A DNA stretch of 64,000 nucleotides, taken from the NCBI GenBank assembly GCA_002422525.1, contig DIWA01000077.1, forward strand, positions 62,096 through 126,095, written 5' to 3'. The notes under the pieces were generated by a model. It was not told where the DNA came from and ran no database searches. It worked only from the letters and a program-made list of their open reading frames with translations. Position numbers and translations under genes: made by a program. This DNA comes from Candidatus Hydrogenedentes bacterium UBA6118. Its GTDB lineage: Bacteria > Hydrogenedentota > Hydrogenedentia > Hydrogenedentales > SLHB01. Shown here piece after piece: positions 12,610 through 59,630 of this stretch. Position 1 is the stretch's first letter. Each line of letters begins with the position of its first letter.

Positions 12610-12780
12610 AGGGGATCCTCGCGATTATCGGGGAAGTTTACCACAAAACGGAGCTGTATTGAAGCGTGGATTCGGCGGTTGCGGCGGCGAACGGACGGTG
12701 GAATCGGCCTCGGGCGGCGGAGTACCATCGAATGGCCGGGGCGGTTGGTGCGCCGGCGCAGGGTGCAGCGAAGGGTAACG

Positions 12781-14829
12781 ATGCGAATGAACACGACTCG
12801 GTGTCCCCATTGCGGCTTTGTCGGTTCGCACGAGACGGGCGTGTGCAGCCAGTGCGGCAAGAGCCTGCGGTCGTCGGGGGAAGCTGCGTCGGAGGGAGCC
12901 GCGTCGGGGGGAGCTGCGTCGGGTTCCGGGGGAGGGGCGCGCAAGGCGGCTCCTGAGGCGACGGTGTTCCGGCGGGGTCAGGTGGTGGCGGGTCGGTATC
13001 AGGTGGTGGACCTGATCGGCCGGGGCGGCATGGGGGCGATCTACCGGGTGCACGACCGGGTGCTGAACGAGCAGGTGGCGTTGAAGACGCTGTTGCCGCA
13101 GTTGGCCCGGAACCAGACGGTGGTGCAGCGGTTCTTCAACGAAGCGCGGATCGCGCGGCAGCTTTCGCATCCGAACATTGTGCGGGTGCACGACATCGGG
13201 ATGGCGGACGGGGTGCTGTACATCTCGATGGAGTTCGTCGAGGGGCAGTCGCTGCGGGCGCTGATGGAAAGCCGGGGCGACGGTCGGATGGATCCGCGCA
13301 CGTTGCTGGGCATCCTGGACCAGATCTGCGCGGCGCTGGACTATGCGCATCAGCACACGGTCCATCGGGATATCAAGCCGGAGAACATCATGGTCGCGGC
13401 GAACGGCGCGGCGAAGCTGATGGATTTCGGGATTTCGAAGCTGATGGCGCATACGCGGATGACGATGACGTCGGTGGTGATGGGGACGCCGCAGTACATG
13501 TCGCCGGAGCAGTTTCGCGACAGCGGGGCGGTGGATGCGCGGGCGGATATCTACAGCATCGGGGTGCTGCTGTACGAGGCGTTGACGGGGAGCCTTCCGT
13601 CGGGCATGTCGCGGCCGGTGTCGACGATGACGAGCCAAGTCCCGGCGGCGGTGGACCCGATCGTTGCGCGGTGTCTCGAAGTCAACCCGGAGCACCGGTT
13701 CCAGAGCGCGGCGGAGCTGCGCGCGGCGCTGGCGGAGGTGCGGACCGCGTTGGAGGGGGATGCGCCGGCCGTCGCCGTGGAACAGGCGACCCCGGCGCGG
13801 CGGCGGTCGCGATCGGCGGCGGTGCGTGCGGTAGGGGCGTTGCTGGCGCTGGCGCTGTTGGCGGGCGCGGGGTTCGCGGCGCGGCGCGTGCTCGAGGCGG
13901 GCGGCGCCGATGCGGAAGGCGTCGGCGAGACTTGGGAGGCGGCGGAGACCGGCGACGGAACGACGGGAACCGGAGCGGCGACGGGGGTGTCGGCGGACGT
14001 GTTGGAGCAGGCGCGGTCCGTCGCGGAAGGGCTGGTCGCCGGGTCGGAGTCGGCGGATAAGCAACGCGTGTTCGCGTACGGCGCGATGCTGGAGGAGCAG
14101 GCGGCCACGTTGGCGCCGCAATATGCGGCGACGGCGCGACATCGCGCGTTGCAGTGCTACGTGGGGATCATCGCGTGGCCCGAGGACGACGCGATGGTGT
14201 TCGTTCCGCCCGGAGAGACGGCGCTTCCGGAGACGGGGATGACGTACGTGCACGGGTTCTACATGGATCGACGCGAGGTGACGAACCGGGCGTTCCTGGA
14301 GTTCTGCGCACGGGTTCCGCAGGGGTGGCCGTATCCGACGTCGATCGCGGCCGGTGTCGGGGATGGGTCAGAGGTCGCCGAGCTGCCCGTGACGGGGCTG
14401 CCGTTCTATTATGCGCAGGGGTACGCTGTGTTCTACGCAGACGCCTTCCCGGATCGGTATGCGGCGCTTTTCGGGGCCTGGGGCGAGCCGGCTGGGGCGC
14501 AGGGGCTGCGGTTGCCCTCGGAGGCGCAGTGGCAGCATGCGGCGGCGTTGGCGGCGGAAGGCAGCCTGGAGATCGAGGGGCTCGACGCGGCGCCCGCGGA
14601 GTGGACGCGTTCGCGATATGGGCCGGCGCCCTACGGGACGGCATCCAGCCGGGAAGACCCGGCGGGGATAGGGTTCGGCGTGTCGCTGGTGGTGCGCGGG
14701 GGCGGCGCGGCGCCACTGACGACACGGGTCGCGGGAGACTACGCGCTTGCGGATCCGGGGATCGGGTTCCGGTGCGTCAAAGAGCTGCCGCGGTCGACGG
14801 AGAAGCTGGTGCAGATGGCGGCGCCGTGA
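12781..14829 (+). CDS. Ser/Thr protein kinase with N-terminal zinc ribbon and C-terminal formylglycine-generating-enzyme (FGE-sulfatase) domain
   Basis: start MRMNTTRCPHCG at 12781 (CxxC...CxxC); kinase motifs GRGGMGAIY, HRDIKPENIM, DFGISK; C-terminus FYMDRREVTNRAFLEF...GFRCV is FGE-like. Confidence 0.8.
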   Translation: MRMNTTRCPHCGFVGSHETGVCSQCGKSLRSSGEAASEGAASGGAASGSGGGARKAAPEATVFRRGQVVAGRYQVVDLIGRGGMGAIYRVHDRVLNEQVALKTLLPQLARNQTVVQRFFNEARIARQLSHPNIVRVHDIGMADGVLYISMEFVEGQSLRALMESRGDGRMDPRTLLGILDQICAALDYAHQHTVHRDIKPENIMVAANGAAKLMDFGISKLMAHTRMTMTSVVMGTPQYMSPEQFRDSGAVDARADIYSIGVLLYEALTGSLPSGMSRPVSTMTSQVPAAVDPIVARCLEVNPEHRFQSAAELRAALAEVRTALEGDAPAVAVEQATPARRRSRSAAVRAVGALLALALLAGAGFAARRVLEAGGADAEGVGETWEAAETGDGTTGTGAATGVSADVLEQARSVAEGLVAGSESADKQRVFAYGAMLEEQAATLAPQYAATARHRALQCYVGIIAWPEDDAMVFVPPGETALPETGMTYVHGFYMDRREVTNRAFLEFCARVPQGWPYPTSIAAGVGDGSEVAELPVTGLPFYYAQGYAVFYADAFPDRYAALFGAWGEPAGAQGLRLPSEAQWQHAAALAAEGSLEIEGLDAAPAEWTRSRYGPAPYGTASSREDPAGIGFGVSLVVRGGGAAPLTTRVAGDYALADPGIGFRCVKELPRSTEKLVQMAAP

Positions 14830-26712: not shown

Positions 26713-29328
26713 CTAACCGGCTCCCGCGGGCGACGGGGCGGCAAGGCGGAGGGAGACCTCGTGGGGCGCGAGGTCGAGGATGAAGCCGCGACGGGGCACG
26801 GTGCGGATGCAGTCGGCGCGCTGGGGCGCGGCGGCGCGGATCCGCCGCACAAGTTCGCCCTTCTGCACTTGGATCTGCGCCGGTTCGACCACGACGTCGG
26901 CCCAGAGTTCGTCGTAGATCTCGGCGTAGGATCGCATCTCGCCGGGACGCTGGGCGAGGAGTCGGATCAGGCGGTATTGCTTCTCCTGCAGCGGAATGTG
27001 CGCGCCGTCGAGTTCGATGCGGTCGGGCCGGGCGTCGTCGATGATCAGAACGGGTCGCGGTTCGGCGGGGGGCGCGTCGCATCGGGCGTCGGCTTGGGAT
27101 GCCGTGCGGCAGGCGCGCGCGGCCCACGCGATGAGGGCGCGGGCATCGTCCATGGCCAACCAACGGGCGAGGCGTTCGGGCGCGGCGGAGGCCAGGCGCT
27201 CGCGGGTGTCCAGGCGCTCGCGGGCGAGGGCGATCACGGCGCGACGGCTGAGGCGGGGGCGGCCGAGTCGCAGCAGGGGCAAATGGGCGGGGAGGGATCC
27301 CCGCGCGACCCGCTCGGCGAGTTCCGAAAGCCGGACGGCGAGGGCGTCGTCGGCGCCGCAGGCGTGCGCGATGCCCGCGGCGGCGTCGAGCAGCCAGGCG
27401 GCCTGCTGGGATGCGGCGAGGATCTGGCCGTGGAACACGCCGTAGCGCTCCTCGATGTCGAACACGGGGGTCTCGTCGATCCAATCGGCGAGGAGCAACG
27501 CGCCTTTGATCGCGCGGACTTCCTCGAAGAACGGCGCGGCCTTGCTGTCGCGGATGCGGTTGAGGGGGACGTCGCCGCGGTTCTCCGCGTCGGCGGCCTC
27601 CGCGCGCAAGCGGTTCGGGTAGTCGGCGTGCTCGTACTCGCGCACGGTGAGGGCGAGTTGCACGGCGCGTCCGTCGGGGGTGAGCAGGGCGGCGAGGAGG
27701 GGGTCGAGGGGGATCCAGTCGCGGGTCTCTGACTCGTGGATCCAGGCGGCGAGGTCGCGGGCGGTCGCGGGGGCGACGCCCTTGACGGCGGCGGTCCAGC
27801 CGAGGGGCGTGGCTTCGAGGCGGCCGGATGCGGCGACGGCGATCATGCCGAGATCCATGGCGCGGTGCACGGCGGCCTGGATGCGTTCCTCGATCTCGTC
27901 GGGCGTCAACGTGCGCGCCCAGACCCACCTGCCCGTCGGGGTGCGGCCGAGGAACCGGACGAGGTCGCCGAGGGTGCGACAGGCGTTCGAGGCGACCAGG
28001 CGCACGACATGGTCTTCGAGGGGGGCGCGGCCGAGTTGCGGTTCGGTGGGTTCGCGGTCGCCGTTCACGTAGCGTTGCCAGAGCGTGTCCTGGTCGAAGG
28101 GGGTCGGGGCGACGAGGATGGACCGTCCGAAGGGCTTGCCGGCGCCGAAGCGGCCGGCGCGTCCGCCCATGTTCTCGTACTCGCCGCGCAGGATGGGCGC
28201 TTTCCAGGGCGTGCCGAAGCGGGCGTCGTACTGCCACTTGTCGGCGGCGACGAAGACGTTCTGCGCGGGCAGGTTGAGCCCGGCGGCGAGGGTGCTGGTG
28301 GAGACGAGGATGCGGACCTCGCCGTCGCGGAACGCTTGCTCGACGACGTCGCGTTCCTCGGGGGCGAGATCGGCGTTGTGGAACGCGACGCCATGGGTCA
28401 TGAGGTCGGTGAGCAGGTCGCGGGCGTGGGTGGGTTCGAGCGTGCGGAGGCGTTCGAGGGCGCGGTCGGCGGCGGGCAAATCGATGCGGTCGGCGAGGCG
28501 TTGCGCGCCGAACCGCGATTCGTAGCGATCCTTCACGAAGATGAGGCAGGGTTCGCCGCGGTCAGCCAGAACCGCGGCGTTTTCGCGGATGACTTCCCAG
28601 GGCGACTCGGCGGGGCAGTCGACCATCGTCTCGGAGGCTTCGGCGAGGTCGTTGTAGCTGCGGTAGCGGAACTCGCCGTTGTGCAGCACGCCGTAGCGGA
28701 GGTCGACGGGGCGGCGGTCGAACTGGAGCAGCTCGGCCTGCATCCATTCGGCGAGCGCGTCGGCGTCGCCCAGCACGGCCGACATGCCGACGAGCCGTAC
28801 GCCCGCGTCGAGCAGGCGCGTCAGGACGATCTCGACGAGGGGGCCGCGTTCCGGGTCGGAGAGGATCTCGAGTTCGTCCGCGATGACAAGCTCGAGCTGG
28901 CGGATGCGTTCGGGGCGGCGCACGAGGAGTTGGGCGAGCTTCTCGTAGACGACCACGGCGAGGTCGAACTCGCCGCGTTCGAAGGCGGCGTCGAACTCGC
29001 GGTGGTCGCGGCTGGACACGAGCACGCGCAGGCCGTAGGGGGCGTACTTGCGCTGAAAGTCGGCCCACTTCTCCGCGGCGAGCGCCTTGAGGGGCACGAG
29101 GTAGACGGCCTTGCGGCGGCGGAGGGCGGCGTGGGCGGCGGCCATCTCGCCGACGAAGGTCTTGCCGGAGGTGGTGGGGGCCTGGATGAGCAGGTTGCCC
29201 TTGCCGAAGAGGCCGAACTTGCGTACGGCGCGTTCCTGAAGGGGCAGGAGCGTGTCGCTTTCCTCGGCGTTCCAGAGGCGGATGAGTTCCGCGGGCAACC
29301 CGAACTGGAGGAGTTCATGCATGTTCAT
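26713..29328 (-). CDS. Ski2/Hel308-like DExH helicase fused to C-terminal OmpR/PhoB-type winged-helix DNA-binding domain
   Basis: start MNMHELL after GGAGG; motif I APTTSGKT, motif II DELE, motif VI GRAGRFG; Hel308-like ratchet/HhH region; last about 100 aa match trans_reg_C (QEKQYRLIRLLAQRPGEMRSYAEIYDELW...VRRIR...IRTVPRRGFIL). Confidence 0.7.
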   Translation of the reverse strand: MNMHELLQFGLPAELIRLWNAEESDTLLPLQERAVRKFGLFGKGNLLIQAPTTSGKTFVGEMAAAHAALRRRKAVYLVPLKALAAEKWADFQRKYAPYGLRVLVSSRDHREFDAAFERGEFDLAVVVYEKLAQLLVRRPERIRQLELVIADELEILSDPERGPLVEIVLTRLLDAGVRLVGMSAVLGDADALAEWMQAELLQFDRRPVDLRYGVLHNGEFRYRSYNDLAEASETMVDCPAESPWEVIRENAAVLADRGEPCLIFVKDRYESRFGAQRLADRIDLPAADRALERLRTLEPTHARDLLTDLMTHGVAFHNADLAPEERDVVEQAFRDGEVRILVSTSTLAAGLNLPAQNVFVAADKWQYDARFGTPWKAPILRGEYENMGGRAGRFGAGKPFGRSILVAPTPFDQDTLWQRYVNGDREPTEPQLGRAPLEDHVVRLVASNACRTLGDLVRFLGRTPTGRWVWARTLTPDEIEERIQAAVHRAMDLGMIAVAASGRLEATPLGWTAAVKGVAPATARDLAAWIHESETRDWIPLDPLLAALLTPDGRAVQLALTVREYEHADYPNRLRAEAADAENRGDVPLNRIRDSKAAPFFEEVRAIKGALLLADWIDETPVFDIEERYGVFHGQILAASQQAAWLLDAAAGIAHACGADDALAVRLSELAERVARGSLPAHLPLLRLGRPRLSRRAVIALARERLDTRERLASAAPERLARWLAMDDARALIAWAARACRTASQADARCDAPPAEPRPVLIIDDARPDRIELDGAHIPLQEKQYRLIRLLAQRPGEMRSYAEIYDELWADVVVEPAQIQVQKGELVRRIRAAAPQRADCIRTVPRRGFILDLAPHEVSLRLAAPSPAGAG

Positions 29329-29359
29329 GGGGGGCCTCCTGGTCGACGGGGGCAGAATA

Positions 29360-29375
29360 CTGAATATATATTCAG
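29360..29375. promoter_or_regulatory. AT-rich perfect palindrome CTGAATATATATTCAG
   Basis: 16-bp perfect inverted repeat, 32 nt upstream of the helicase-wHTH start on the minus strand. Confidence 0.5.
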
Positions 29376-29485
29376 AAGTCAAGCGGAAAACGGCGGGAGT
29401 GGAAGACGGGCGTCGCGGAGATGGGAAACGCGCCCTCCCCTCGACGGGAGGAGAGGGCGCGCGGGAAGACAGGCGGACGAGCCGC

Positions 29486-32400
29486 CTACGGCGTGGTCAC
29501 GGTGAGCCGGGCCTCGGCGGCGTGTTCGACGCCTTGGGCCAGATCGACGGCCTCGCCGTCCAGCAGGGCGAGGAAGACGCGGACGCGGCCGTCGCCGTTG
29601 TCGATGAGGAACGCGCTCTGGAACGCGTCGAGGTTGTCGAGGCGGAGCGTGGACCCGGCGAGGTCGACTTCGAGCCAGGGGGCATCGAGTCCGAGGCGTT
29701 CGCCGACGAGGTCGCCGGCGACGCCGGAGGCATCAGGGCCGCGCCAGCCTTCGAAGCCGTCGAGCAGAAAGGACATGGCGTAGAAGGCGCTGCGTTCGGG
29801 CATGTCGACGGTCGGGCGGATGCCGACGGTGAGGGCGAGGCCGTCGTCGGTCGCGGCGTAGCGCTGGATAGCGTGGACGACGGGGTTGCGGCGCGGGGGC
29901 GTCTGCACGCCGTTCCAGGGGGAGGCATGGAGGGCGGCCGAGAAGCCGATGCCGGGATGGTCTTCGGCGAGGTCGAGGCGCGGGGTGTTGGCCCATTGCG
30001 TGGACGACAGCGTCTTGTCGTCGTAGAGGCCCCAGTCGGAGTAGACGCGGCCGACCTCGGCGATGCGGTTGCGCGGGTCGCCGTCGATGTAGAGTCCGGC
30101 GAGTCCGCCGCCTTGGCGACGCGCGGCGGTCGCGGTGATGCGGGGCGCGCGGACGGTGACGAACAGCGGGGAGATCGCGAGGTCGTCGCGTTCGATGGGC
30201 CGCCATGCGGGCGTGTAGGGCTCGTCGGGACCGATCCTGCGCACGGTTGCGATGTCGGCGGGCTCGACGATCAGGCGCACGCCGTCGCCGTCGACGTCGG
30301 GATCGTCGATGCAGGCGGCCGTCGCGCGGCGCGGATCGAACTCGACGGCCACGACGCCGTCGGGGGTGGTGAGGCCGAAGCTGACCAGGGAGGCGCCGTC
30401 GAAGCGGGCGGATTCGAGCGGATTCCACGCGCGTTCCAGCACGGGTAGCGCGCTGAGGACGTCGCCGATGTCCGAGGCGACGGCGCCGAGGTTGTTGAAG
30501 TCGCCTTCGAGGAAGCCTTCGGCGGTCTGGACGAACCAGCCCGTCGCGCCGTCGACCTGGAGCCAGCCCTCCGGGGTGATGTCGACGGAGGTCTCCGCGC
30601 TCTCGGGTGCGGGAGGCGCGGGCGGTTCGAACGTGTCGGTCCAGTTTTCGGGCTTAAGGAGCAGCACGGCGGGACGCCACGGCGCGATGCGGATGCGGGC
30701 GGCGGCCGGTTCGCGGGTGAAGCCGTCGATGGCTTGGGGGAAGCGCTGGGACAGCGCGTCCGGCCAGGACAGGTCGACGGTCAGGGGTGCGCCGGTCAGG
30801 TTGACGGCGACGATGGCCGCGCCGTCGTCCGCCTCGCGCAGGAACGCGAAGACGTGGTCGTGCGAGGCGTTCACGGTGAGGAAGTCGGCCGCGCCGGTGC
30901 GGAAGCAGGCCTCGGCGTTGCGGACGGCCATCCACCGGGCGAGGTCTTGGGCGAATCCCGTCTCCTGTTCCTGGTAGAGCATGGGGATGCCGGGGATGAA
31001 GGTGTTGAGGGCTTGCAGGGCCTGCGACAGGCCGACGCCGAAGAAGTCGGAGGGCTCGACGACGTCGTGGTTCTGGAGGAAGCGTACGAGGCCGCGCAGG
31101 CCGTCGTTGGGATAGCCGATGCACTCGAGCTGGAGCCAGTCGCGGGTCTGTCGGATCCAGCGGGCGAGGTCCGGTTCGCCGGTGATGTCGCGCTGGGCGA
31201 GGTAGAGCGGGTAGTCGAACAGCATGTCGGCGTTGCGGAACACGAGGGGCTTGCCGCCTTCGGGCAGCGTGACGCCGTGGGGGTTGTCCTCGCGGAAGCC
31301 GTCGCGGATGACCTTGTTGAGTTGGAGGCCGCCGTAGGCGATCGGGTCGCTGGCGCGGTCCGGGTTGGCCCAGTTGAGGGTCTGTCCCCAGCCGATGCAA
31401 TCGAGGCGCGCGCCGTCGAAGCCGAAGGCGTCGCGCCAATGGGCGACGACCTGTGCGATCCGGTTCTGCCAGACCGGGTTGCTGCAGTCGGCGGCCTGCA
31501 CGGTGTCGCCCCACACGAGGACGGGCTCGCCCTGCTCGTTCCGGCACCAGACCTCCGGGGGCAGCTTCTCGATCTCGCTGCTCGAGGGGTTGATGCCGTA
31601 GACGACGAGGTCGATGAGGATGCGCATGTCGTGGGCGTGGGTCGCGTCGACAAGGGCCCTGAGTTGCTCCGGGTCGCCGTTCTCGGGCGCGATGCGGTCG
31701 AACTCGGGCAGCGTGTAGACCCAGGGCGGGGGCCAGCTCACGGGGAGGACCCAAAGGGTCTGCATGCCGAGGGCGCGGTAGTAGGGCATGCATGCGGCGA
31801 GCCGGGGGTAACGCATGCCGCGGTCGCCCTCGGACCAGATCTCGAGACGGCCCCATGGGTGGAACTCGTAGAGGCCGCCTTCCGTCATGCTGAGCGGCGA
31901 ATCGGGCGGCGGGCCCAGTTCGAGGCTCTCGACCAGGGCGTCGAGGCCGCGCAGGCCGTCGCGTTCGACGCCGTCCGTGACGCGGACGACCTGGTCGCCG
32001 ATCTCGATCGTGCGGCCGGGCTGCATGACGGTGACGGCGCTGAACCGATGGGCCGGCGTGACGCGGTCCGCGCTTTCGTAGACATGGACGGTCGCTTCGT
32101 CGTGCGTGAAGACGTAGCCGACGGACAGGGAGCGTCGGGCGGCGGGCGCGTGGAGGAAGGCGAGGGCGTAGTCGCCGCGGGTCCAGCCTTGCTCGCGCAC
32201 GTGGCGGCCGTCGCGGAGGGCGTCGAAGCGGCGGCGATCGGGCGGGTAGTTGCCGGGGATCAGGTAGAAGTCGTCGGGTTCGGCGGAGAGGCGCACGCCG
32301 GGGACGCGCAGGCCGACGTTCCAGAGCTTGACGGGTTCGTCGCCATGGTAGGCGATGCGCACGCGACGCCGTAGTTGCGGTCCGGCGACGGCGTAGGTCC

Positions 32401-40689: not shown

Positions 40690-40714
40690 CATGTTAAACC
40701 TTGCCTTTAACATG
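40690..40714. promoter_or_regulatory. AT-rich palindrome CATGTTAAA-N7-TTTAACATG upstream of fic
   Basis: perfect 9-bp arms; 38 nt upstream of Fic ATG at 40752. Confidence 0.45.
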
Positions 40715-40751
40715 GAGCCGGAATCCGCGTGTACTAAAGCGAGCGCAACGT

Positions 40752-41939
40752 ATGGAAGCAGGCAACGAGAGGGCGGCCCGCCGCGCGCGCGCCGGACGCT
40801 ATATCGAGCAGGTCGGCGGCTACCGCGCCTTCATCCCGAGTCCGCTGCCGCCCGACCCGCCGGTGGACCCGCGGGGGCTGCACGCCCTGCTCTCACGGGC
40901 TGACCGCGCCCTTGGACGGCTCGACGGGTCCATCTACACGCTCCCGAACCCCGACCTTTTCGTCGCCATGTATGTCCGTAAGGAGGCCGTCCTCTCGAGC
41001 CAGATCGAGGGGACTCAGAGTTCCCTCCAGGATGTCTTGGCTGCCGAGGCCAAGGTGCTGGACCCCGAGCGCCCCAGCGACGTGGACGAGGTGTTCAACT
41101 ACGTGGCCGCGATGAACTACGGCCTGGAGCGCCTGGCATCCTTGCCCCTATCCGTGCGCCTCATTCGCGAGATCCACGAGCGATTGCTGCGAGGCGTCCG
41201 AGGTTCCCACGCGACCCCCGGGGAGCTCCGCAACAGCCAGAACTGGATCGGCGCCAGCGGATGCACGCTCAGCGAAGCCGTCTTCGTCCCGCCTCCGCCT
41301 CACGAGGTCCCTAAGCTGCTTTCAGACCTTGAACGCTTTCTGCACCGCGAGACCGACTTGCCCCTGCTGGTCAAGATCGGCCTCGCGCACGCGCAGTTCG
41401 AGACGATCCACCCGTTCCTGGATGGCAACGGGCGAGTCGGTCGCCTGCTTATCACTTTCCTGCTCTGCAATGAGCACGTTTTGCAGAAGCCCGTCCTGTA
41501 TCTGTCGTGGTATTTCAAACGGCATCGCCAGGAGTACTACGACCGTCTCCAAGCGGTTCGCGATGATGGAGACTGGGAAGCCTGGATCGCCTTCTTCCTG
41601 CGAGGCGTCGCGGATGTCAGCGGACAGGCCACGGAGACGGCGCGCCGACTGCTGACCATGCGCGAGGAGCACCGCGACCGGGTGACCCAGTCCCTCGGCC
41701 GCGCCGCGGGGAACGGCCATCGCACCCTCGAGTATCTCTACGAACACCCGATTGTGACTGTCAATGACGTGAAGAGACTGGTCGGTTCCACCTATCCCGC
41801 AGCGAACGACCTGGTTGCTCGGTTGGTTGAGGAGGGGATTCTCAGCGAGATGACCGGCCAGAAGCGAAACCGACGGTTTGTCTACCGTGAGTACCTCGCT
41901 GTGTTCCACGACGGCGATTCGCAGGAGTCCCCGGATTAG
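40752..41939 (+). CDS. fic: Fic-family AMP-transferase (class II, N-terminal inhibitory motif) with C-terminal winged helix
   Basis: HPFLDGNGRVGR canonical Fic motif; SSQIEG fits the (S/T)xxxE(G/N) inhibitory helix motif; SoFic-like architecture. Confidence 0.85.
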   Translation: MEAGNERAARRARAGRYIEQVGGYRAFIPSPLPPDPPVDPRGLHALLSRADRALGRLDGSIYTLPNPDLFVAMYVRKEAVLSSQIEGTQSSLQDVLAAEAKVLDPERPSDVDEVFNYVAAMNYGLERLASLPLSVRLIREIHERLLRGVRGSHATPGELRNSQNWIGASGCTLSEAVFVPPPPHEVPKLLSDLERFLHRETDLPLLVKIGLAHAQFETIHPFLDGNGRVGRLLITFLLCNEHVLQKPVLYLSWYFKRHRQEYYDRLQAVRDDGDWEAWIAFFLRGVADVSGQATETARRLLTMREEHRDRVTQSLGRAAGNGHRTLEYLYEHPIVTVNDVKRLVGSTYPAANDLVARLVEEGILSEMTGQKRNRRFVYREYLAVFHDGDSQESPD

Positions 41940-52775: not shown

Positions 52776-54536
52776 CTATTGCGCTGAGGCGGCGCCGTTG
52801 GCGTCGAAGAGGGGGATGTCCCCGGGCGCATCAGCGGCGCGCATCTCGATGCGGGAGCAGTTCGCCGTGAGGGTGCGGGAATCGCCGTTGCCGGGCATGA
52901 CGTCGCAGGGCCGCCAGGACGCCGCGCGCAGCTCGAGCGTGACCTCGGAGGCGTCGGTCGCGGGGATGACGCCCGTGACGACGGCGGGTCCGGCGGTCTC
53001 GGGGAAGGCCGCGATGCGCTCGTCGCCCAGGTAGAGGCCCGCGGCGGCGTCGACGGCGTGCTCGGGGATGCCGACGTGGACCGTCACATTGTAGGCGACG
53101 CCCGGTGTGACGGGCAGCAGGAACCGCGAGCCGACCGTCGCCCAGCGCATCGTGGACTCGGGGTCGTCCGGGTCTTGCCCCTTCTCGCGACCGTACCAGC
53201 GGGTGAGGTAGGCGCGGTCGCCGGCGGCGCCGATGTCGATCGCGTAGGCTTTCGCGGCGCCGTCGGGCCAGGCGACGATGAACTCCTCGTTCAGGCCGGC
53301 CTGGGTGCGCGCGCCGGCCTGGTTCGTGAAGCGGAACCCGCCTTCGGCCTGGTTGGCGGTGAGGATCGCGGAGCGCACGGCGGGCCCGACCGCGACATGG
53401 GTGTCGCCGTCGAGGAAGGTGCAGCCTTGGATGATGGCCTTGCCGGCGTCGATCTCGATGGCGGGGCGTCCGGTGAAGCTGAAGTCCCAGTCGCAGAAGT
53501 GGCAGGCGTTCGCGGTGACCTGCGCCGCCTTGCTGCGCATCCAGATGCAGCGGTCGATCGGGCCCCAGAACGAGCAGTTGTTCAGGCTGACCTTGCCCCC
53601 CGAGACGGATTCGGCGATCTCGACGCAGACGGAGTCGGTGCTGGACCAGCGGCCGACGAATTCGCCGTTGGTGATGAGCAGGCCCGAGAGCTGGCATTGC
53701 TCGACGAGCACGGCCCGCTGGCAGGAGTCCGCCCCGATGCCGAGGAAGTTGCCGTTGCAGGCGCCCTTGTCCGACTGGGAGAACTTGTAGCCGACGCCGT
53801 AGCCGAAGCAGAAGGTGTTCGTGACGTACTGCCAGTCGGTGCGGGCGAACTCGAACGCGACGCCGTTGACGTTGACCCATTTGCAGAAGGGGTCGTCGGG
53901 CTTGTAGGCCACGCCGAACGGCCAGAAGTGGACGTTCTCGACGCGGCCGATGTCCATGCAGCCGTCCACGTAGAGCCCGCGCATGAGGGGATAGCCGTAG
54001 ACGTTGCGCACGAGATGGCGGTGGGCCGTGTCAAAGTGGATGCCTTCGTAGCAGGGCATCAGGCAGACGTCCTGCACGCTGACGTTCTCCGTGCCGTGCG
54101 AGTAGATCGTGGGCGGATAGGGGATGGGCGGCACGTCCTCCGTGCTGATCTCGGGGTAGCCGATGGTGATGCCCTTGATCGTGGCGCCCGTGCCCGCCAG
54201 CGTGATGAACGGGGCGCTGTCCGGGGCGCCGCGTCCCGCGAACGCATACAGCGAGGTCCCCTCGCCGGCTTCCCCGCCCTGTCGCCAACCGTTCGCCGGG
54301 GTGCGGAACACGCCCTCGAGCGTGACCGCCGCCGGGATGCGGAGCGTCCCGTCGATACGGTAGACCCCCGCCGGGATGCGTACGACGCCGCCGCCGGCGT
54401 CGCCCGCCGCGTCCAAAGCCTGTTGAAACGCCTCCGTGCAGTCCGCGGCGCCGTCGCCCACCGCGCCGTAATCCACGACGGACCAGTCCGCGGCGGCCGC
54501 CGCGGCGCACACCATGCCAATCACCAAGTGCAACAT
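52776..54536 (-). CDS. secreted right-handed beta-helix protein, pectate-lyase superfamily (GH28/GH55-like)
   Basis: start MLHLVIGMV after GAGGGAGG; signal peptide; DYGAVGDGAADCTEAFQQALDAAGDAGGGVVRIPAGVYRI is the Pectate_lyase_3 N-terminal signature. Confidence 0.7.
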   Translation of the reverse strand: MLHLVIGMVCAAAAAADWSVVDYGAVGDGAADCTEAFQQALDAAGDAGGGVVRIPAGVYRIDGTLRIPAAVTLEGVFRTPANGWRQGGEAGEGTSLYAFAGRGAPDSAPFITLAGTGATIKGITIGYPEISTEDVPPIPYPPTIYSHGTENVSVQDVCLMPCYEGIHFDTAHRHLVRNVYGYPLMRGLYVDGCMDIGRVENVHFWPFGVAYKPDDPFCKWVNVNGVAFEFARTDWQYVTNTFCFGYGVGYKFSQSDKGACNGNFLGIGADSCQRAVLVEQCQLSGLLITNGEFVGRWSSTDSVCVEIAESVSGGKVSLNNCSFWGPIDRCIWMRSKAAQVTANACHFCDWDFSFTGRPAIEIDAGKAIIQGCTFLDGDTHVAVGPAVRSAILTANQAEGGFRFTNQAGARTQAGLNEEFIVAWPDGAAKAYAIDIGAAGDRAYLTRWYGREKGQDPDDPESTMRWATVGSRFLLPVTPGVAYNVTVHVGIPEHAVDAAAGLYLGDERIAAFPETAGPAVVTGVIPATDASEVTLELRAASWRPCDVMPGNGDSRTLTANCSRIEMRAADAPGDIPLFDANGAASAQ

Positions 54537-54633
54537 GTCTCGATCCTCCCTCGTTGACCATCGCGATTCGACATTGTGCCACGAATGCCCCGCGATCGCC
54601 ACCCCGTTGAGTGAGAGGGGGGAGGGGGGGGGA

Positions 54634-54870
54634 TCAGAACCCCAGGTCGCCGTCCTCAATCCCAAGCGCGATCGCCACGGCCAGCGCGTTCCGGAGCATG
54701 AACGCGCCGTAGTTCCTCGCAAGCGCAACCAGATGCTCGGATGCGTCCGGCGTCCAGTCGCCGCCGTCCTGGAGCGCGCGCGTCAGGGATTCGGAATCAT
54801 CGGAGGCGATTCCGTCTAAGGTTGAACGATACTCCTCAACAAGCAGACCGACGTTTTCCATTGTCGCCAA
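54634..54870 (-). CDS. small acidic hypothetical protein
   Basis: 78 aa, 24-nt gap downstream of HNH gene on same strand; stop followed by C9 homopolymer on coding strand. Confidence 0.4.
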   Translation of the reverse strand: MATMENVGLLVEEYRSTLDGIASDDSESLTRALQDGGDWTPDASEHLVALARNYGAFMLRNALAVAIALGIEDGDLGF

Positions 54871-54893: not shown

Positions 54894-55685
54894 TCACTCA
54901 CGGAAAACATTGGATTGATGCCACTCAAGGTAGCGTTGGTCCGGCAGAAATCTGTGCGGACGGATCACGGGCGCGTCGTGGTAAACGCAGATCAGATCCC
55001 GGATGCGTGTGTCCGCGCTGGCGCGCAACGATCCGCATATCGCGACCCTGAGTTCGGTGGTGAGGGTCAGCAGTCCGCGGTCAAAGAGCCGATCGAATGT
55101 CGCGCTCAGGCAGAGCCCGTTGCGCGGGTCCGTTCGGGACTGCTCCGAGACGCTCCAGGGAACAATGTGGCTCGCGACAAGAGCCTCGCGAACCCGAAGC
55201 CCCGTGACGCAGCAGGTCTGTTCGTAGCTGCTCAGGACGGCGTCTCTGAAGAACGCCTGGTGGATTCTGGCCTTCCGCGCGGCGATCTGTTCGGAAGGGC
55301 CCGTCGGGAGCGTCAGTTCTGAGCGCGACTCGCGACCCTGCCCTGCCGGAGCGCCCAATGCTTCGGGCAGTCTGCAGGCCTCGAGTGCGAGGCTGTTCCA
55401 GTCGTTGCTGAACGCGTCCCAGATCTCCGCATCCAGCTTGCTCGCATGAACGAGCCCGGAGACGCCGCGCTTCTGCAGCTCCGGGTCAAAGGCGCCGAAG
55501 TTGCCGAGTTTGCGGGCGACCCCGGCGGGCGACCGGCCGATGAGCTGCGCCAGGGAGACGACCCGCGGGTTGGTCGCCTTGGTTTGTCGGAAGGGGATCC
55601 GGCAGTAGAGATCCAACGCCAGGACCAATTCGTCTCGGGTCCAAGGAGCGCCGTAGTTCTTAGGATCAGGTTCAGATGTCGTCAT
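54894..55685 (-). CDS. HNH endonuclease family protein (HNH_2/PF13391-like; putative restriction or defence nuclease)
   Basis: C-terminal FRDAVLSSYEQTCCVTGLRVREALVASHIVPWS HNH core; N-terminal recognition-like domain. Confidence 0.65.
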   Translation of the reverse strand: MTTSEPDPKNYGAPWTRDELVLALDLYCRIPFRQTKATNPRVVSLAQLIGRSPAGVARKLGNFGAFDPELQKRGVSGLVHASKLDAEIWDAFSNDWNSLALEACRLPEALGAPAGQGRESRSELTLPTGPSEQIAARKARIHQAFFRDAVLSSYEQTCCVTGLRVREALVASHIVPWSVSEQSRTDPRNGLCLSATFDRLFDRGLLTLTTELRVAICGSLRASADTRIRDLICVYHDAPVIRPHRFLPDQRYLEWHQSNVFRE

Positions 55686-55729
55686 GGCGTCTTCATTCGC
55701 GTTCGACTAGACAAAAGTCGCCGGTTTTC

Positions 55730-55768
55730 TGATGGCATACTCCAGCATGGGGCGCGTTGTCCAGCAGG
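55730..55768. repeat. 39-bp direct repeat, copy 1 (TGATGGCATACTCCAGCATGGGGCGCGTTGTCCAGCAGG)
   Basis: identical to 59592-59630; lies 44 nt upstream of the HNH gene start and 87 nt downstream of gajB end. Confidence 0.9.
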
Positions 55769-55854: not shown

Positions 55855-57595
55855 TCACAGCTTATACTGGGAGAGAATCGGACAAGCAGGATAGGCCTCC
55901 CTCAGAACAAGCGTATGGACTCGCGCCCGCGTGATGGCGACACGCAGAATCTTACGGCTTCGCGGGTACGGCAGTGGGTCGTTCGGCCAAACGAGAGGTG
56001 AGGAATGTCGGCATCCAAAGATGATGACCGCATCGAATTGCTTGCCCTTTGATTTGTGTATAGTCATCACGTGAGTCCCCGTCAGGTCTTCCCCGCCCGA
56101 GAGGATCTGGTCCTCGGCTAACGCGGCGTCGAGTGCCCGGCGGGCCCCTAGGTATTGGCCGTGCTCTTCCCACAGCGAAGACAGGTTGGCTGCGATGCGC
56201 TTCCCCCGGTTGAAGGTGACAAGGTGTTCGACCTCACGGTCTACCGATAGGAGTTCGTCGACGTTCGTGCCACGCAGTATAGTTCTCATGTGCTCCCAGT
56301 CTTTTCGAGGGTTTCCGCTGAGTGGCGTGGTCCTGAGGTTTCGGACCAGTGCGTCCAGGCCCCTGTAGAGGGCTGCGGTGGTAGCTTTCCCCCCCCAGAC
56401 GAGTCTCGGACGCCCAATTCCGTAACTTCTCTGCACGCTCAAGAGAGGTCTTAGTGCCGTTGGCGCGGAACAGGGATGATAGCAGCTCCAAGGCCACCGC
56501 AAGATCTTCTGCTTCATTGCCCCGGATCTTCGGCTCCATCAGGAAGGCAACGAGTCGACTGGAGAGGAGCGTCTTCGAATCATCGAAGAGCACCTTGTGC
56601 GCTATGGGGTTAGGTGCTGCTCGCAACGCATTAGAGACGATCTTCGCGCCCCTGTCGAAACTAGTGAGGAAAGCAATGCTCTGCGGCGACTTTCCAGTAG
56701 CCTGCCTCACACGGGAGCACACGACTCCAACACTCTGCCTGATGCTGTGGTCGCGCTTGGCGGCTTCCGACTGAAACAAGAGCTGAGAGACTCCCGCATA
56801 GCCTCCCGGCCGACCTCTGGCAGCCAGAACGTCCGCCCCAAACGCAGCGATCTCGTTATCTGGACTGCGGTGATTCTCCGCGCCTAGATCCACGCGAACG
56901 GGCCTCAGGTCGGACTCGATCTGAGTAACCCGTTTCGGCCCAATTCCTGGAAGAAAATCGTAGATCTGTTGTTCTAGATCCGCGAGACATAGCAGTTGTG
57001 AGTGCTGAGCCAGCATCTTAACACACGTCCATTGCTCCGGTCCTGTATCTTGAGCTTCGTCGACAATAATCAGGGGATAATGCGCAGAAAGAATGCGCCG
57101 AATTCGCTCGCACCGGACTAACAGCTGTGCCGTTTTTGGCGCGAACAGGTCAAAAGCAGTCCGGCCTTCCTCTGCAAACAGTCGTTCGCGTTCTGTCGTC
57201 CAGTTGCGCCAGGCATCGGTCTTGCGCCGGGTAACGCCGCCCGACAGGGCCCGTTCATCGTGCGGGGCCAGAAGAGTGAGCCTCTTTGGAGCGCCAAGCA
57301 GATAGGCGTGAGTGCGCAGGATCTCCCAGAAGAAGGAGTGAAACGTCTGGATGGCGAGAAGCCCCTGATCCGCTCGTGGGATTCGCTCGCTAGCGGTTTC
57401 GGCGATTCGTGCAACGGCGGCGCGTGAGAAACTCAGGAAGAGCACCGCCTGACCCCTATTAAGGCCAGCTTCAATTCGATGCAGTGCCTTTAGAAGCGCA
57501 ATGGTCGTCTTGCCACTTCCGGGACCTCCCGTGACAAGGAGATGCCGTTGCTCGTGAAGTATCAGCTGGCGTTTTGGGCAGAGATCGAGCATCAC
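55855..57595 (-). pseudogene. gajB: GajB-like UvrD/Rep-family helicase, reading frame interrupted at G8 homopolymer
   Basis: ORF 56234-57595 has Walker A GGPGSGKT, motif II IIVDEAQD, motif III QQIYDF; ORF 55855-56517 in another frame carries the helicase C-terminal motifs (VMTIHKSKGKQFD, ITRAR); the two frames join at C8 run 56389-56396. Confidence 0.75.
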
Positions 57596-59430
57596 GCGTG
57601 AGGTCCCGCATCGGCCTGAAGTGTCCCATTTGTCTGGTCCTTGGTACCGGAATCATGCTCGAGAGCCCGTGGAATGGCAGCGGGTTCCGGCCTTGGGAAA
57701 TCGGCATAGACCTTCTGAAGGAAGCCCTTGATGCTCACAGGTAGTTCGGAATAGTGGCACATGTCAATGAGCCGTCCAGCGGTTCCGTCGCCCTTGCGAC
57801 CTTTCAGGAGGCGATGGCACAGGCCCTTCACGCTATCATCGTTTGGCCGTTGCGTTGGGATGCTGACGTTTCCCTGTTGACCGAGTTCCCGAATCTCATC
57901 CAGAAGCTGCCACTGACGGTCAATAGGCACCTCGGCAACGAGCAGAGCCTCCGCGCCCGGGTAATTGGTCTCATATGGCAAGTGGAAAGCGCCTTGCAGG
58001 TCTGTGGTCTCATCAGTGGATCGATGCTTCCTGTCGTAGAACGCGTAGGTCGAGAGGCCTAGGCTCTTGAAGAACTGGCCGAAGGCCGGTAGCGCCCCAT
58101 CGCCGTCCGAGGAGAACACCGTCACACCAGACAGATCCAGCGGATAGTACGCCTCATCCGCAGCCTCCATTTTCTCCGAGACGGCCCACAGGGCGATCTG
58201 TTCCGTGAGTCCTTCTGCGACGATAACTGCTCGGCCCAGCATAGCCTCGCAGAGACCTCGTCGCGCATGCTTACGGTAGGTCTTGGGCTTGATGGCTTCA
58301 CCAAGGAAGATCGGTGCTGCTATGAGACCAGCCTCGTCGGAACGCCGCAGGATCTGGATCTGCGAAGGCTCAAACTGCTCAATGACGTAGGGGGAGTGAG
58401 ATGTCACCAGACACTGGCTGGTTCTGTTTACCAGGTAGTTGACGATCCGCCTCTGCGTATGCGGCGGCAACGCAATCTCTGGCTCCTCCATGGCAAAGAT
58501 GACGTTGCTCCTCTTCAACTCGGCGACAAAGGAAAGGAGGGCTAGAACTAACGTGTTCAACGTGCCCGCCCCAACATGCTGAAACGGCACGGGTTCCTGG
58601 TCCGGAAACATGGTGAGAAAAAAGGACAACGTCTTGCGCAGATGCTCCCGCGTCAATTGTGAAACAAAGAGTTTGGCGCCCGATTCCTTACCTTGGGTGG
58701 GAATGTACTGACCAAGACGTTCCTGAAGAGACGCTAGTACTGGTTGCAGACCAACTGCGTCGTCGTCGATTGGCGGATCAAGGTCGTGCAGCCGCTCGAT
58801 GGTCTGTTCCCAGAGACCTGTCCGAATGCTTCCGAGGCGCAGAATGGTATCCAGAAGAGAACCCCGCTCAAGGCTGAGCGCCCGCGAGCCAGTTCGTAAC
58901 GCGCGCAAGTAGAGGAATCCGAACATGCGCTTGACGGTCCGGCTTACCACCTTTCGCTCGCCTTCCGGTGCGTCTGGGCTGTGGGAGAAGTAGGTCTTTG
59001 CCTCGAACTCATCTTCCTCCGGGTCGTATCTGCCAATGCTCTCCAGGCGGAGGCACGTCTCAACTTCCGATGCGTCCACCAGATCGGCCTCGCCCTCAGC
59101 CAAGAGGCGGTGCTCCGTGGTGTGCCAGAACTCAAGATGGGTACCGCAGGTGCTGGTGACTTCATCCGTGAGGCCGGTCAAGACAACCTCAACGCTAAGC
59201 CGCCGAGGCGTTTCCTGGTCCTCCTCAAGGTAGCGAGCGTTGTAGAAGTCAAACTCCTCGACTGGAGGGGACTTGGCAAGACGGTCAGGGCCGAGGACGA
59301 GGTCAAGAGCCTCGCAGACCGTGGATTTGCCCACGTTGTTTGTGCCGACGAGGAGAGCATGTCCACTGAAATGAAGAGTGGCATCAGCGATGCCTCGGTA
59401 GTTGGTGATCTTCAGTCGTGCGACACGCAT
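57592..59430 (-). CDS. gajA: GajA-like OLD-family ATP-dependent endonuclease (ABC ATPase + Toprim)
   Basis: N-terminus RLKITNYRGI...LLVGTNNVGKSTVCEAL (AAA_15/AAA_21); D-loop AMEEPEIALPP; C-terminal Toprim VIVAEGLTE and SSDGDG; 4-bp overlap with gajB. Confidence 0.8.
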   Translation of the reverse strand: MRVARLKITNYRGIADATLHFSGHALLVGTNNVGKSTVCEALDLVLGPDRLAKSPPVEEFDFYNARYLEEDQETPRRLSVEVVLTGLTDEVTSTCGTHLEFWHTTEHRLLAEGEADLVDASEVETCLRLESIGRYDPEEDEFEAKTYFSHSPDAPEGERKVVSRTVKRMFGFLYLRALRTGSRALSLERGSLLDTILRLGSIRTGLWEQTIERLHDLDPPIDDDAVGLQPVLASLQERLGQYIPTQGKESGAKLFVSQLTREHLRKTLSFFLTMFPDQEPVPFQHVGAGTLNTLVLALLSFVAELKRSNVIFAMEEPEIALPPHTQRRIVNYLVNRTSQCLVTSHSPYVIEQFEPSQIQILRRSDEAGLIAAPIFLGEAIKPKTYRKHARRGLCEAMLGRAVIVAEGLTEQIALWAVSEKMEAADEAYYPLDLSGVTVFSSDGDGALPAFGQFFKSLGLSTYAFYDRKHRSTDETTDLQGAFHLPYETNYPGAEALLVAEVPIDRQWQLLDEIRELGQQGNVSIPTQRPNDDSVKGLCHRLLKGRKGDGTAGRLIDMCHYSELPVSIKGFLQKVYADFPRPEPAAIPRALEHDSGTKDQTNGTLQADAGPHA

Positions 59431-59591
59431 CGGCTATGGCCTCCTACCTCCTCTCTCGGAATGCAGAGAGACGTCAGCGCCCCTATTGCCTGAACACGGA
59501 ACGGCAATGGCGAGGCGGATCTAGCCACGCTGTGCACCGGGTGTCAGTGGCACATGGGTAGCTGCTTGTCCGTCAACTCCAGGCGGTTCCT

Positions 59592-59630
59592 TGATGGCAT
59601 ACTCCAGCATGGGGCGCGTTGTCCAGCAGG
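59592..59630. repeat. 39-bp direct repeat, copy 2
   Basis: identical to 55730-55768; 161 nt upstream of gajA start. Confidence 0.9.

What the first reader, a model, noticed from the sequence alone, without database searches (positions are those of the whole stretch)
56380..56405. gajB reading frame is split inside a G8/C8 homopolymer: phase-variable switch, decay or assembly error
The helicase N-terminal motifs (56234-57595 ORF) and C-terminal motifs (55855-56517 ORF) are in different frames. They join at an 8-nt C run (56389-56396 on plus, G8 on the coding strand): ...ETRLGG | KATTAALYRGLDALVRNL.... A single G insertion or deletion would restore one 580-aa helicase.

A second long tract (G6-A-G9, 54617-54632) sits 88 nt upstream of the pectate-lyase-like gene, just after the small ORF next to the HNH nuclease. 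Homopolymer slippage is a classic phase-variation mechanism. Reversible on/off switching of a costly defence system would be notable, but homopolymers are also the commonest sequencing error.
Basis: partly seen in the sequence, partly recalled or inferred. Interest (0 to 1): 0.55.

Follow-up and report, generated by a model that had tools for sequence, protein, structure and literature searches.

The report
Frameshifted Gabija helicase gene (gajB)
One extra G in a run of Gs has broken the helicase gene of a Gabija anti-phage system in an uncultured bacterium; the break is real and recent, but nothing shows it acts as an evolved on/off switch, so it is most likely an ordinary inactivating mutation.

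Summary
Window 56389-56396 is C8 (G8 on the coding minus strand), and gajB changes frame exactly there. Only G7 (-1) or G10 (+2) restores the frame; a +1 insertion does not. The G7 reconstruction matches a PADLOC GajB model end to end (E 1e-184) and aligns without gaps to homologues. gajA, just upstream, is intact.

- **Assembly error is unlikely.** Four other public assemblies from different pipelines are 100% identical over 3.9-12.4 kb and all carry G8. No other gene in the window looks frameshifted.
- **Phase variation is unsupported.** No G6, G7, G9 or G10 allele product exists among about 15 billion public proteins. The syntenic orthologue (about 90% nt identity) has an intact gajB with no run at this site (GGGAAAGAG). 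None of 26 intact homologues has a G/C run of 7 or more. The tract lies at 69% of the gene.
- **The lesion is recent.** The downstream frame has no further defect, dN/dS is 0.29 downstream against 0.33 upstream, and lineage-specific replacements are 7 against 7.

Best reading: a recent +1 slippage frameshift in a lineage-specific G run. It switches Gabija off in one clonal Hydrogenedentota population, inside a defence hotspot where relatives carry other, irreversible lesions. Reversion is physically possible but not shown. The second tract (G6AG9) is a variable pyrimidine-rich spacer with no evidence of switching.

The parts
57592..59430 (-). gajA, intact, 612 aa (ABC ATPase plus OLD-type TOPRIM nuclease)
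   Evidence: PADLOC GajA PDLC00086, E 1.4e-223, residues 1-595 against model 1-592 of 600. Pfam AAA_15, AAA_21 and OLD-like_TOPRIM. Its stop overlaps the gajB start as TGATG.
56397..57592 (-). gajB 5' part in the original frame. It holds about 400 codons of native sequence: helicase domains 1A/1B, Walker A and the DEAQD motif.
   Evidence: Pfam UvrD-helicase and AAA_19. Forms the N-terminal part of the single-stretch PADLOC GajB match. Public gene calls give a 452-aa product.
56389..56396 (-). G8 homopolymer (C8 on the + strand): site of the +1 frameshift
   Evidence: The orthologue L005 reads CGTCT-GGGAAAGAGAGCTACC against CGTCTGGGGGGGGAAAGCTACC in the window. G8 is identical in L001-L004.
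56234..56388 (-). Out-of-frame tail read after the tract in the G8 allele (about 51 codons, then the stop)
   Evidence: ORF 56234-57595 ends ...ETRLGGESYHRSPLQ...PIGRP*.
55855..56388 (-). gajB 3' part, now one base out of register with the 5' part. It is 177 codons, has no further defect, and carries SF1 helicase motifs V (THVMTIHKSKGKQF) and VI (VAITRAR).
   Evidence: Gapless alignment to homologues. Pfam UvrD_C and UvrD_C_2 at residues 505-559. Aligns to UvrD1 residues 594-653. dN/dS 0.29.
59584..59630 (.). Direct repeat copy upstream of gajA
   Evidence: 47 nt, 94% identical to the other copy, with a 38-nt identical core. 0 of 100 shuffles gave 2 matches. Also present in L005.
55722..55768 (.). 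Direct repeat copy downstream of gajB
54894..55685 (-). Stand-alone HNH_2 nuclease gene next to the Gabija cassette, outside the direct repeats
   Evidence: Pfam HNH_2 E 1.9e-13; PADLOC HNH PDLC04132 E 3e-79. Deleted in L005, internally deleted in L036, and replaced in L037.
54634..54870 (-). 78-aa ORF of unknown function
   Evidence: No Pfam or PADLOC hit. Conserved at 83-85% in L005 and L036.
54617..54632 (-). Second tract: C9-T-C6 on the coding strand (G6-A-G9 on the + strand), intergenic
   Evidence: Relatives carry C6TC5TC5TC3 (L005) or C5TC5TC3 (L036, L037). Identical in the three of L001-L004 that reach it (L001-L003).
52776..54536 (-). Pectate-lyase-like gene (586 aa) downstream of the second tract
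   Evidence: Pfam Pect-lyase_RHGA_epim E 2.5e-10. 93-95% identical in six related loci.

Best explanation
A two-gene Gabija operon (gajA then gajB, with TGATG start/stop overlap) sits in a low-GC, low-skew island of an uncultured Candidatus Hydrogenedentota genome.

In this lineage the gajB codons for ...Leu-Gly-Gly-Lys... became a run of seven Gs. Slipped-strand mispairing during replication then added one G (G7 to G8).

Translation now leaves the helicase frame after residue about 401 and stops about 51 codons later. The product keeps domains 1A/1B but lacks SF1 motifs V and VI, so it cannot work as an ATPase or helicase. Gabija defence needs the GajA-GajB complex, so the system is most likely off.

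The lesion is genuine, fixed in the sampled clonal population, and recent. It is one of several independent lesions in this defence hotspot among related strains. A G8 to G7 reversion is physically possible, but nothing indicates that the tract is maintained as a switch.

- **Shown:** the tract, the frame change, reproducibility across assemblies, absence of other alleles, absence of the tract in orthologues, and no relaxed constraint.
- **Inferred:** slippage as the cause, loss of function, and loss of defence.
For: - **Identity.** The G7 reconstruction matches PADLOC GajB PDLC00104 in one stretch (3-575 against 2-573 of 574, E 1.2e-184). gajA matches at E 1.4e-223.
- **Ancestral length.** The alignment to six homologues is gapless across the junction only with G7.
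- **Reproducibility.** L001-L004 are 100.000% identical to the window over 3.9-12.4 kb, including G8.
- **No general homopolymer problem.** The G7 run at 1700 and the C7 run at 5633 lie in intact ORFs, and neighbouring overlapping ORFs are different genes.
- **Orthologue.** The syntenic locus L005 (88.5% nt identity in gajB) has an intact 572-aa gajB with GGGAAAGAG at the site.
- **Family survey.** None of 26 intact gajB homologues has a G/C run of 7 or more.
- **Other alleles.** The predicted products of G6, G7, G9 and G10 alleles are absent from about 15 billion proteins; only the 452-aa and 144-aa G8 products are present.
- **Recency.** dN/dS is 0.29 downstream and 0.33 upstream. Lineage-specific replacements are 25 in the window against 20 in L005, and 7 against 7 downstream.
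- **Missing motifs.** Motifs V and VI lie at residues 507-564, downstream of the shift.
- **Requirement for the complex.** The GajA-GajB complex is required for defence in vivo (PMC10781630).
- **Hotspot turnover.** The HNH gene is deleted in L005 and internally deleted in L036, and the whole cassette is replaced in L037.
- **Source.** At least one of the samples is a long-term toluene-degrading methanogenic enrichment culture (PMC5029510).
Against: - No read-level data were available, so a minority of G7 cells cannot be excluded.
- The assemblies are probably not independent populations. All are 100% identical, and two JGI records appear to be the same culture. Their agreement argues against error more strongly than it argues against switching.
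- The intact downstream frame and unrelaxed dN/dS are equally expected for a reversible switch.
- The perfect G run differs from the orthologue at four positions. It lies within 1.8 kb of the only other run of 8 or more in 64 kb, in a genome where such runs are depleted.
Confidence: 0.7

Rival explanations
1. Evolved contingency locus. The G run is kept because slippage between G7 (ON) and G8 (OFF) lets the population switch a costly Gabija system on and off, as poly-G tracts do for restriction-modification genes in Neisseria, Haemophilus and Campylobacter.
For: - The G8 tract lies inside the ORF and one step from the in-frame length.
- The downstream frame is fully intact, with dN/dS 0.29.
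- The only two runs of 8 or more in 64 kb both lie in the 5-kb defence region, while such runs are depleted overall.
- G/C runs of 7-8 undergo reversible frameshifts in another high-GC group, the M. tuberculosis complex (PMC10334774).
Against: - No length variant is seen in five assemblies or among about 15 billion proteins.
- The tract is absent from the syntenic orthologue, and none of 26 homologues carries a G/C run of 7 or more.
- The tract is at 69% of the gene, whereas homopolymer tracts used for gene inactivation are reported to lie preferentially at the 5' end (PMC2831843).
- The measured +1 rate for a 7G tract in M. smegmatis is only about 3e-8 per generation.
- Other lesions in the same hotspot are irreversible deletions.
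- No paper on homopolymer-switched Gabija was found.
Confidence: 0.12
2. Sequencing or assembly artefact. The true sequence is G7 and gajB is intact.
For: Homopolymers are error-prone. The JGI toluene-culture assembly included 454 reads (PMC5029510). All assemblies may derive from one culture.
Against: - G8 appears in the NCBI, ENA (k141 contig naming), two JGI and Logan assemblies, made with different pipelines, within 100%-identical flanks.
- The G9 tract is equally reproducible in the three assemblies that reach it.
- No other gene in 64 kb shows a frameshift, and the G7 and C7 runs lie in frame.
Confidence: 0.06
3. Recoding. Some full-length GajB is still made from the G8 allele, either by +1 ribosomal slippage of tRNA-Gly on GGG-GGG-G or by RNA polymerase slippage on the G run. 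This would give low, tuned expression.
For: In CTG GGG GGG GAA, a P-site tRNA-Gly can re-pair one base forward and then read AAA GCT, which is the correct frame (from the sequence). The downstream frame is intact.
Against: - The site is not conserved in the orthologue or in any homologue.
- There is no stimulatory structure downstream: the fold z-score is +0.33.
- There is no rare or stop codon in the A site (GAA).
- Known programmed sites are conserved across orthologues (established knowledge of prfB and dnaX).
Confidence: 0.05
4. Functional split gene. The N-terminal fragment of about 450 aa and a separately translated C-terminal fragment reassemble into an active helicase.
For: Gene callers predict a 144-aa C-terminal ORF starting at 56289.
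Against: - No convincing ribosome-binding site lies before either candidate start.
- The 144-aa fragment would lack about 33 native residues between the shift and its start.
- All 26 homologues surveyed at the DNA level are single intact genes, and nearly all of the 120 listed protein homologues are single chains of 555-601 aa.
Confidence: 0.02

Closest known systems
Gabija anti-phage system (GajA/GajB, Bacillus cereus VD045 type)
   Same: Same two-gene architecture. gajA encodes an ABC ATPase plus TOPRIM nuclease and is followed by a UvrD-like SF1 helicase gene. Both match PADLOC models over their full length, and 24 distant loci show the same gene pair.
   Different: gajB is frameshifted here, so the 4:4 GajAB complex shown to be needed for defence (PMC10781630) cannot form with an active helicase. 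The host is an uncultured Hydrogenedentota. The operon is bracketed by 47-nt direct repeats.
Poly-G/C contingency loci in Neisseria, Haemophilus, Campylobacter and Helicobacter (for example phase-variable restriction-modification genes)
   Same: A G/C homopolymer inside a defence-gene ORF, where +/-1 slippage changes the reading frame.
   Different: Those tracts are conserved among strains, polymorphic in length within and between isolates, and usually lie near the 5' end (my own knowledge; not checked against a paper here). Here the tract is lineage-specific, invariant in all data, and at 69% of the gene.
Homopolymer frameshifts in high-GC Mycobacterium tuberculosis (glpK 7C and others)
   Same: A 7-8 nt G/C run in a high-GC genome, with frameshifts that can revert (PMC10334774).
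   Different: In M. tuberculosis the case rests on repeated independent gains and losses across thousands of isolates. Here there is one allele in one clonal population.
Listeria monocytogenes inlA 5' poly(A) frameshift
   Same: A gene inactivated by a homopolymer indel that can be restored by slippage (PMC2831843).
   Different: That tract is at the 5' end, recurs in several lineages, and its switching frequency was measured. None of this is shown here.

Membership tests
Gabija (GajAB) | GajA: ABC-type ATPase fused to an OLD-family TOPRIM nuclease | tested here: met
   Pfam AAA_15, AAA_21 and OLD-like_TOPRIM; PADLOC GajA E 1.4e-223 over the full length.
Gabija (GajAB) | GajB: UvrD-like SF1 helicase encoded immediately downstream in the same operon | tested here: met
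   PADLOC GajB E 1.2e-184 in one stretch after removing one G. TGATG overlap with gajA.
Gabija (GajAB) | Both genes intact, so that the GajA-GajB complex can form (needed for defence, PMC10781630) | tested here: not met
   gajB is frameshifted at G8. The product lacks motifs V and VI.
Gabija (GajAB) | Protects against phage | not testable with these tools
Repeat-mediated phase-variable (contingency) locus | Hypermutable simple repeat within the ORF or promoter, where a unit change switches expression | tested here: met
   G8 lies in the ORF; G7 and G10 are in frame.
Repeat-mediated phase-variable (contingency) locus | Tract-length polymorphism, with both ON and OFF alleles, within a strain or among close relatives | tested here: not met
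   All five assemblies carry G8. G6, G7, G9 and G10 products are absent from about 15 billion proteins. Read-level minority variants could not be examined.
Repeat-mediated phase-variable (contingency) locus | Tract retained across related strains or orthologues | tested here: not met
   L005 has GGGAAAGAG at the site. None of 26 homologues has a G/C run of 7 or more.
Repeat-mediated phase-variable (contingency) locus | Measured high-frequency reversible switching | not testable with these tools
   Needs read pile-ups, single-cell data or reporter assays.
Programmed frameshift or transcriptional slippage (prfB or dnaX type) | Slippery site conserved among orthologues | tested here: not met
   The site is absent from L005 and from all homologues surveyed.
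Programmed frameshift or transcriptional slippage (prfB or dnaX type) | Stimulatory element (upstream Shine-Dalgarno-like sequence, slow A-site codon, or downstream structure) | tested here: not met
   The downstream 131 nt fold at z +0.33. The A-site codon is GAA.
Recent pseudogene by slippage | Disrupted relative to intact orthologues, with the lesion inside a repeat | tested here: met
Recent pseudogene by slippage | Signs of relaxed constraint (further stops or indels, raised dN/dS) | tested here: not met
   There is a single lesion. dN/dS is 0.29 against 0.33, and replacements are 7 against 7. The event is therefore recent, which is also compatible with a switch.

The most novel reading that the evidence does not exclude
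The G run in gajB is a true contingency locus. A Hydrogenedentota population would switch Gabija between ON (G7) and OFF (G8) by slippage, and the sampled enrichment culture happens to be dominated by OFF cells. This would be the first homopolymer-switched Gabija, found in a phylum with no known phase variation. The nearby variable C-rich tract upstream of the pectate-lyase-like gene might be a second switch.
Probability: 0.1. Interest if true: 0.55.

Novelty: new member of a known kind. Interest (0 to 1): 0.2.

Why it matters
As it stands, this is a well-documented natural gajB-null Gabija locus inside a fast-changing defence hotspot of an uncultured phylum. It is useful as an annotation caveat: the system should be scored as disrupted, not active. 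It also illustrates how defence genes are lost, by slippage in one lineage and by deletion of the neighbouring HNH gene in others.

If read-level data showed mixed tract lengths, homopolymer phase variation would extend from restriction-modification systems to Gabija and to environmental bacteria. That would bear on how the cost of defence is managed.

Tried and rejected
- **Metagenome scans for more alleles.** One used the tract pattern allowing G6-G11. The other used a 23-nt flank conserved with the orthologue. Both found nothing, so the collection does not hold these contigs.
- **Genome scan.** The genome-contig scan returned 24 distant Gabija loci but not the source genome.
- **Direct repeat in viral contigs.** 0 hits.
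- **Direct repeats as integron attC-like hairpins.** Rejected: the single-strand DNA folds are weaker than shuffles, z +1.0 to +1.8.
- **RNA structure downstream of the G8 tract** (frameshift stimulator). z +0.33.
- **RNA structure linking the C-rich second tract to the downstream ribosome-binding site.** z -0.46, not significant.
- **Sigma-70 promoter scan around the second tract.** None found.
- **Other same-strand overlapping ORF pairs in the window, as possible further frameshifts.** They are different genes: an ORF with no family match next to HepT, P5C reductase next to GNAT, and a phosphoesterase next to an esterase-like protein.
- **An apparent 26-nt difference between L002 and the window.** It is a scaffold gap of Ns.
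- **Association of the HNH gene and the 78-aa ORF with Gabija elsewhere.** They are absent from the 24 distant Gabija loci.
- **Literature searches for homopolymer-switched Gabija or gajB frameshifts.** Nothing specific was found.

Full report
**What is in the sequence**

Window 56389-56396 is C8 on the + strand, which is G8 on the coding minus strand. ORF 56234-57595(-) is 453 aa and ORF 55855-56517(-) is 220 aa. They lie in frames that differ by one base.

On the coding strand the site reads ...GAG ACT CGT CTG GGG GGG GAA AGC... (E T R L G G E S). In the other frame it reads ...GGG GGG AAA GCT ACC ACC (G G K A T T).

Removing one G gives a 578/579-aa protein, and adding two gives 579/580 aa. 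Adding one G or removing two gives a third frame that stops after about 33 codons.

**Gene identity**

- The G7 reconstruction matches PADLOC GajB model PDLC00104 in one uninterrupted stretch (residues 3-575 against model 2-573 of 574, E 1.2e-184).
- It carries Pfam UvrD-helicase and AAA_19 in the N-terminal part and UvrD_C and UvrD_C_2 at residues 505-559.
- The upstream ORF 57592-59430(-) is a full-length GajA (PADLOC E 1.4e-223; AAA_15, AAA_21, OLD-like_TOPRIM).
- The gajA stop overlaps the gajB ATG as TGATG.
- An alignment with six homologues is gapless across the junction with G7: window ETRLGGKATTAALY, closest relative GTRLGKRATTAALY. G7 is therefore the ancestral in-frame length, and G8 is a +1 insertion located within four codons of the run.

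**Is it an assembly error?**

Exactly the same GajA protein is encoded on five public contigs. They are an NCBI contig of 127 kb, ENA ERZ27315036 (k141 contig naming), JGI 3300002498, JGI 3300001567 and Logan SRR5323146.

The four that could be read (L001-L004) are 100.000% identical to the window over 3.9-12.4 kb. All have G8, and those that reach it also have the G9 tract. Gene callers on all of them produced the same 452-aa truncated GajB.

Elsewhere in the window the G7 run at 1700 lies in an intact ABC-transporter ORF and the C7 run at 5633 lies in an intact HepT-like ORF. The window is packed with long intact ORFs, and overlapping same-strand ORF pairs proved to be different genes. A systematic homopolymer problem is therefore not visible.

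One caveat applies. JGI 3300001567 is a toluene-degrading methanogenic enrichment culture assembled from 454, Illumina and fosmid data (PMC5029510). 'TOLCLC' (3300002498) is probably the same culture. Because all the assemblies are 100% identical, they probably sample one clonal population. They are good evidence against error but weak evidence about population dynamics.

**Is it a switch?**

I looked for any other tract length in four ways.

- The predicted products of G6, G7, G9 and G10 alleles are all absent from a collection of about 15 billion proteins. The two G8 products (452 aa and 144 aa) are present in the NCBI, JGI, Logan and ENA sources.
- A homology search with the reconstructed protein found no full-length relative closer than 85% identity.
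- That 85% relative (P0001, locus L005, Logan SRR19237660) is a true syntenic orthologue. Its gene order is URO-D, gajA, gajB, 78-aa ORF, pectate-lyase-like gene, TetR, at about 90% nucleotide identity. Its gajB is intact at 572 aa. The site reads CGTCT-GGGAAAGAGAGCTACC against CGTCTGGGGGGGGAAAGCTACC in the window. There is no homopolymer, and the window sequence is one base longer.
- Among 26 intact gajB genes from diverse phyla, none has a G or C run of 7 or more.

The tract is therefore specific to this lineage and invariant in all available data. It also lies at 69% of the gene, whereas homopolymer tracts used for gene inactivation are reported to lie preferentially at the 5' end (PMC2831843).

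G8 runs are also no more common than composition predicts. There are 3 overlapping matches against 10.3 +/- 4.6 expected in shuffles.

**How old is the lesion?**

- The 177 codons downstream of the shift have no further stop or indel.
- They keep helicase motifs V and VI.
- dN/dS between the window and L005 is 0.29 downstream and 0.33 upstream. For comparison, gajA is 0.21 and the flanking genes are 0.15-0.16.
- With P0002 as outgroup, replacements specific to the window lineage number 25 against 20 for L005, and 7 against 7 downstream.

There is no sign of relaxed constraint, so the frameshift is recent relative to a divergence of dS about 0.23. This fits a new pseudogene and a reversible switch equally well, so it does not discriminate between them.

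**Context**

The host is Candidatus Hydrogenedentota. Every named close homologue of the window's Mrp/ApbC protein comes from that phylum.

gajAB lies in a segment with GC about 0.58-0.59 and almost no GC skew. The rest of the window has GC of roughly 0.64-0.70 and a strong skew of +0.15 to +0.27 regardless of gene orientation. The operon is therefore of foreign origin and not yet ameliorated. It is bracketed by a 47-nt direct repeat at 55722-55768 and 59584-59630, and the repeat is also present on both sides in L005.

The site is a variable defence hotspot.

- The adjacent HNH_2 nuclease gene (54894-55685) is cleanly deleted in L005, which retains about 34 nt of its 5' end.
- The same gene is internally deleted in L036.
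- In L037 the whole segment between URO-D and the small ORF is replaced by a Bro-N gene plus a different, inverted HNH_2 gene.

Independent, irreversible lesions in relatives make simple loss of function the default expectation for the gajB frameshift as well.

**Consequence for function (inferred)**

The G8 product keeps about 401 native residues. These include the region corresponding to the 1B domain, through which B. cereus GajB docks on GajA (PMC10781630). It loses motifs V and VI of domain 2A, which SF1 helicases need to couple ATP hydrolysis (established knowledge of PcrA and UvrD).

The GajA-GajB complex is required for defence in vivo, although GajA alone cuts DNA in vitro (PMC10781630). 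The system is therefore most likely non-protective in this population.

**Alternatives considered**

- *Recoding.* A +1 tRNA-Gly slip on GGG-GGG-G, or RNA polymerase slippage, is mechanically possible. However, the site is not conserved, and no stimulatory structure follows it (z +0.33).
- *Split functional gene.* It has no convincing ribosome-binding site and no precedent among the homologues examined.
- *Integron cassette.* The direct repeats do not fold like attC sites.

**The second tract**

G6-A-G9 at 54617-54632 is C9-T-C6 on the coding strand. It begins one base after the stop of the 78-aa ORF and lies 80-96 nt upstream of the pectate-lyase-like ATG.

Relatives carry C6TC5TC5TC3 (L005, same total length) or C5TC5TC3 (L036 and L037, 6 nt shorter). 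It is therefore a fast-evolving (C5-6 T)n-like pyrimidine spacer.

It is identical in all assemblies of the window strain that reach it. It shows no significant RNA structure and no consensus promoter around it. There is no evidence that it switches anything.

**Verdict**

Assembly error is very unlikely. The most economical reading is a recent +1 slippage frameshift that inactivates gajB, and hence Gabija, in one clonal Hydrogenedentota population (confidence about 0.7). An evolved phase-variable switch remains possible at about 0.1 and can be tested directly with read pile-ups. Homopolymer frameshifts in defence genes are a known kind of event, so interest is low to moderate.

Noticed in passing
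window 55722-55768 and 59584-59630; L005 about 2700-2750 and about 6480-6530: A 47-nt direct repeat (38-nt identical core) brackets exactly the gajA-gajB operon, both in the window and in the 90%-identical orthologous locus. It does not fold like an attC site, no integrase is nearby, and there is no match in viral contigs. The Logan contig L004 starts and ends inside the two copies. Its origin (target duplication or cassette boundary) is unexplained. It could mediate loop-out deletion of the operon.
   Followed up: partly
window 54894-55685; L005 6573-6610; L036 89-551; L037 812-2970: The HNH_2 nuclease gene next to Gabija is a hotspot of independent lesions. L005 has a clean 765-nt deletion that keeps the first about 34 nt. 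L036 has an internal deletion of about 450 nt. L037 has a different cassette (Bro-N plus an inverted 277-aa HNH_2 gene, 43% identical). So one lineage has lost gajB and others have lost the HNH gene.
   Followed up: partly
window 54617-54632; L005 about 6837-6860; L036 about 816-835; L037 about 3010-3030: The C-rich tract after the 78-aa ORF varies among relatives as (C5-6 T)n units: C9TC6, C6TC5TC5TC3 and C5TC5TC3. Some Logan contigs (L033-L035) begin about 108 nt upstream of the pectate-lyase-like ATG and carry different upstream sequence there.
   Followed up: partly
whole window; island 55.8-59.5 kb; also 4-8 kb: The + strand has a very strong GC skew: +0.17 overall, 0.15-0.27 per 4 kb, and up to 0.42 locally. 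The sign is the same in genes on either strand. G6 runs number 24 against 1 C6 run. The Gabija island (skew about 0.01-0.04, GC 0.59) and the 4-8 kb segment (skew 0.065, containing a HepT-like toxin gene at 5333-5731) stand out as compositionally foreign.
   Followed up: partly
L006-L008, 5006-6004 (uncultured Nitrospiraceae MAG and two JGI metagenomes): In the next-closest Gabija locus (GajB 73% identical, intact at 580 aa), gajA is called at only 332 aa instead of about 600. This may be another partly decayed Gabija, this time in gajA.
   Followed up: no
window 57590-57595: The gajA stop and gajB start overlap as TGATG, which suggests translational coupling. A GTG one codon upstream explains the difference between the 453-aa and 452-aa ORF calls.
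   Followed up: yes
window 40698-41936, 12295-14826 and 26716-29496: Other defence-like or mobile-like genes occur elsewhere in the window: a Fic/SoFic-type adenylyltransferase, a Ser/Thr kinase with similarity to defence-associated kinases, and a Hel308-like helicase. None was examined further.
   Followed up: no
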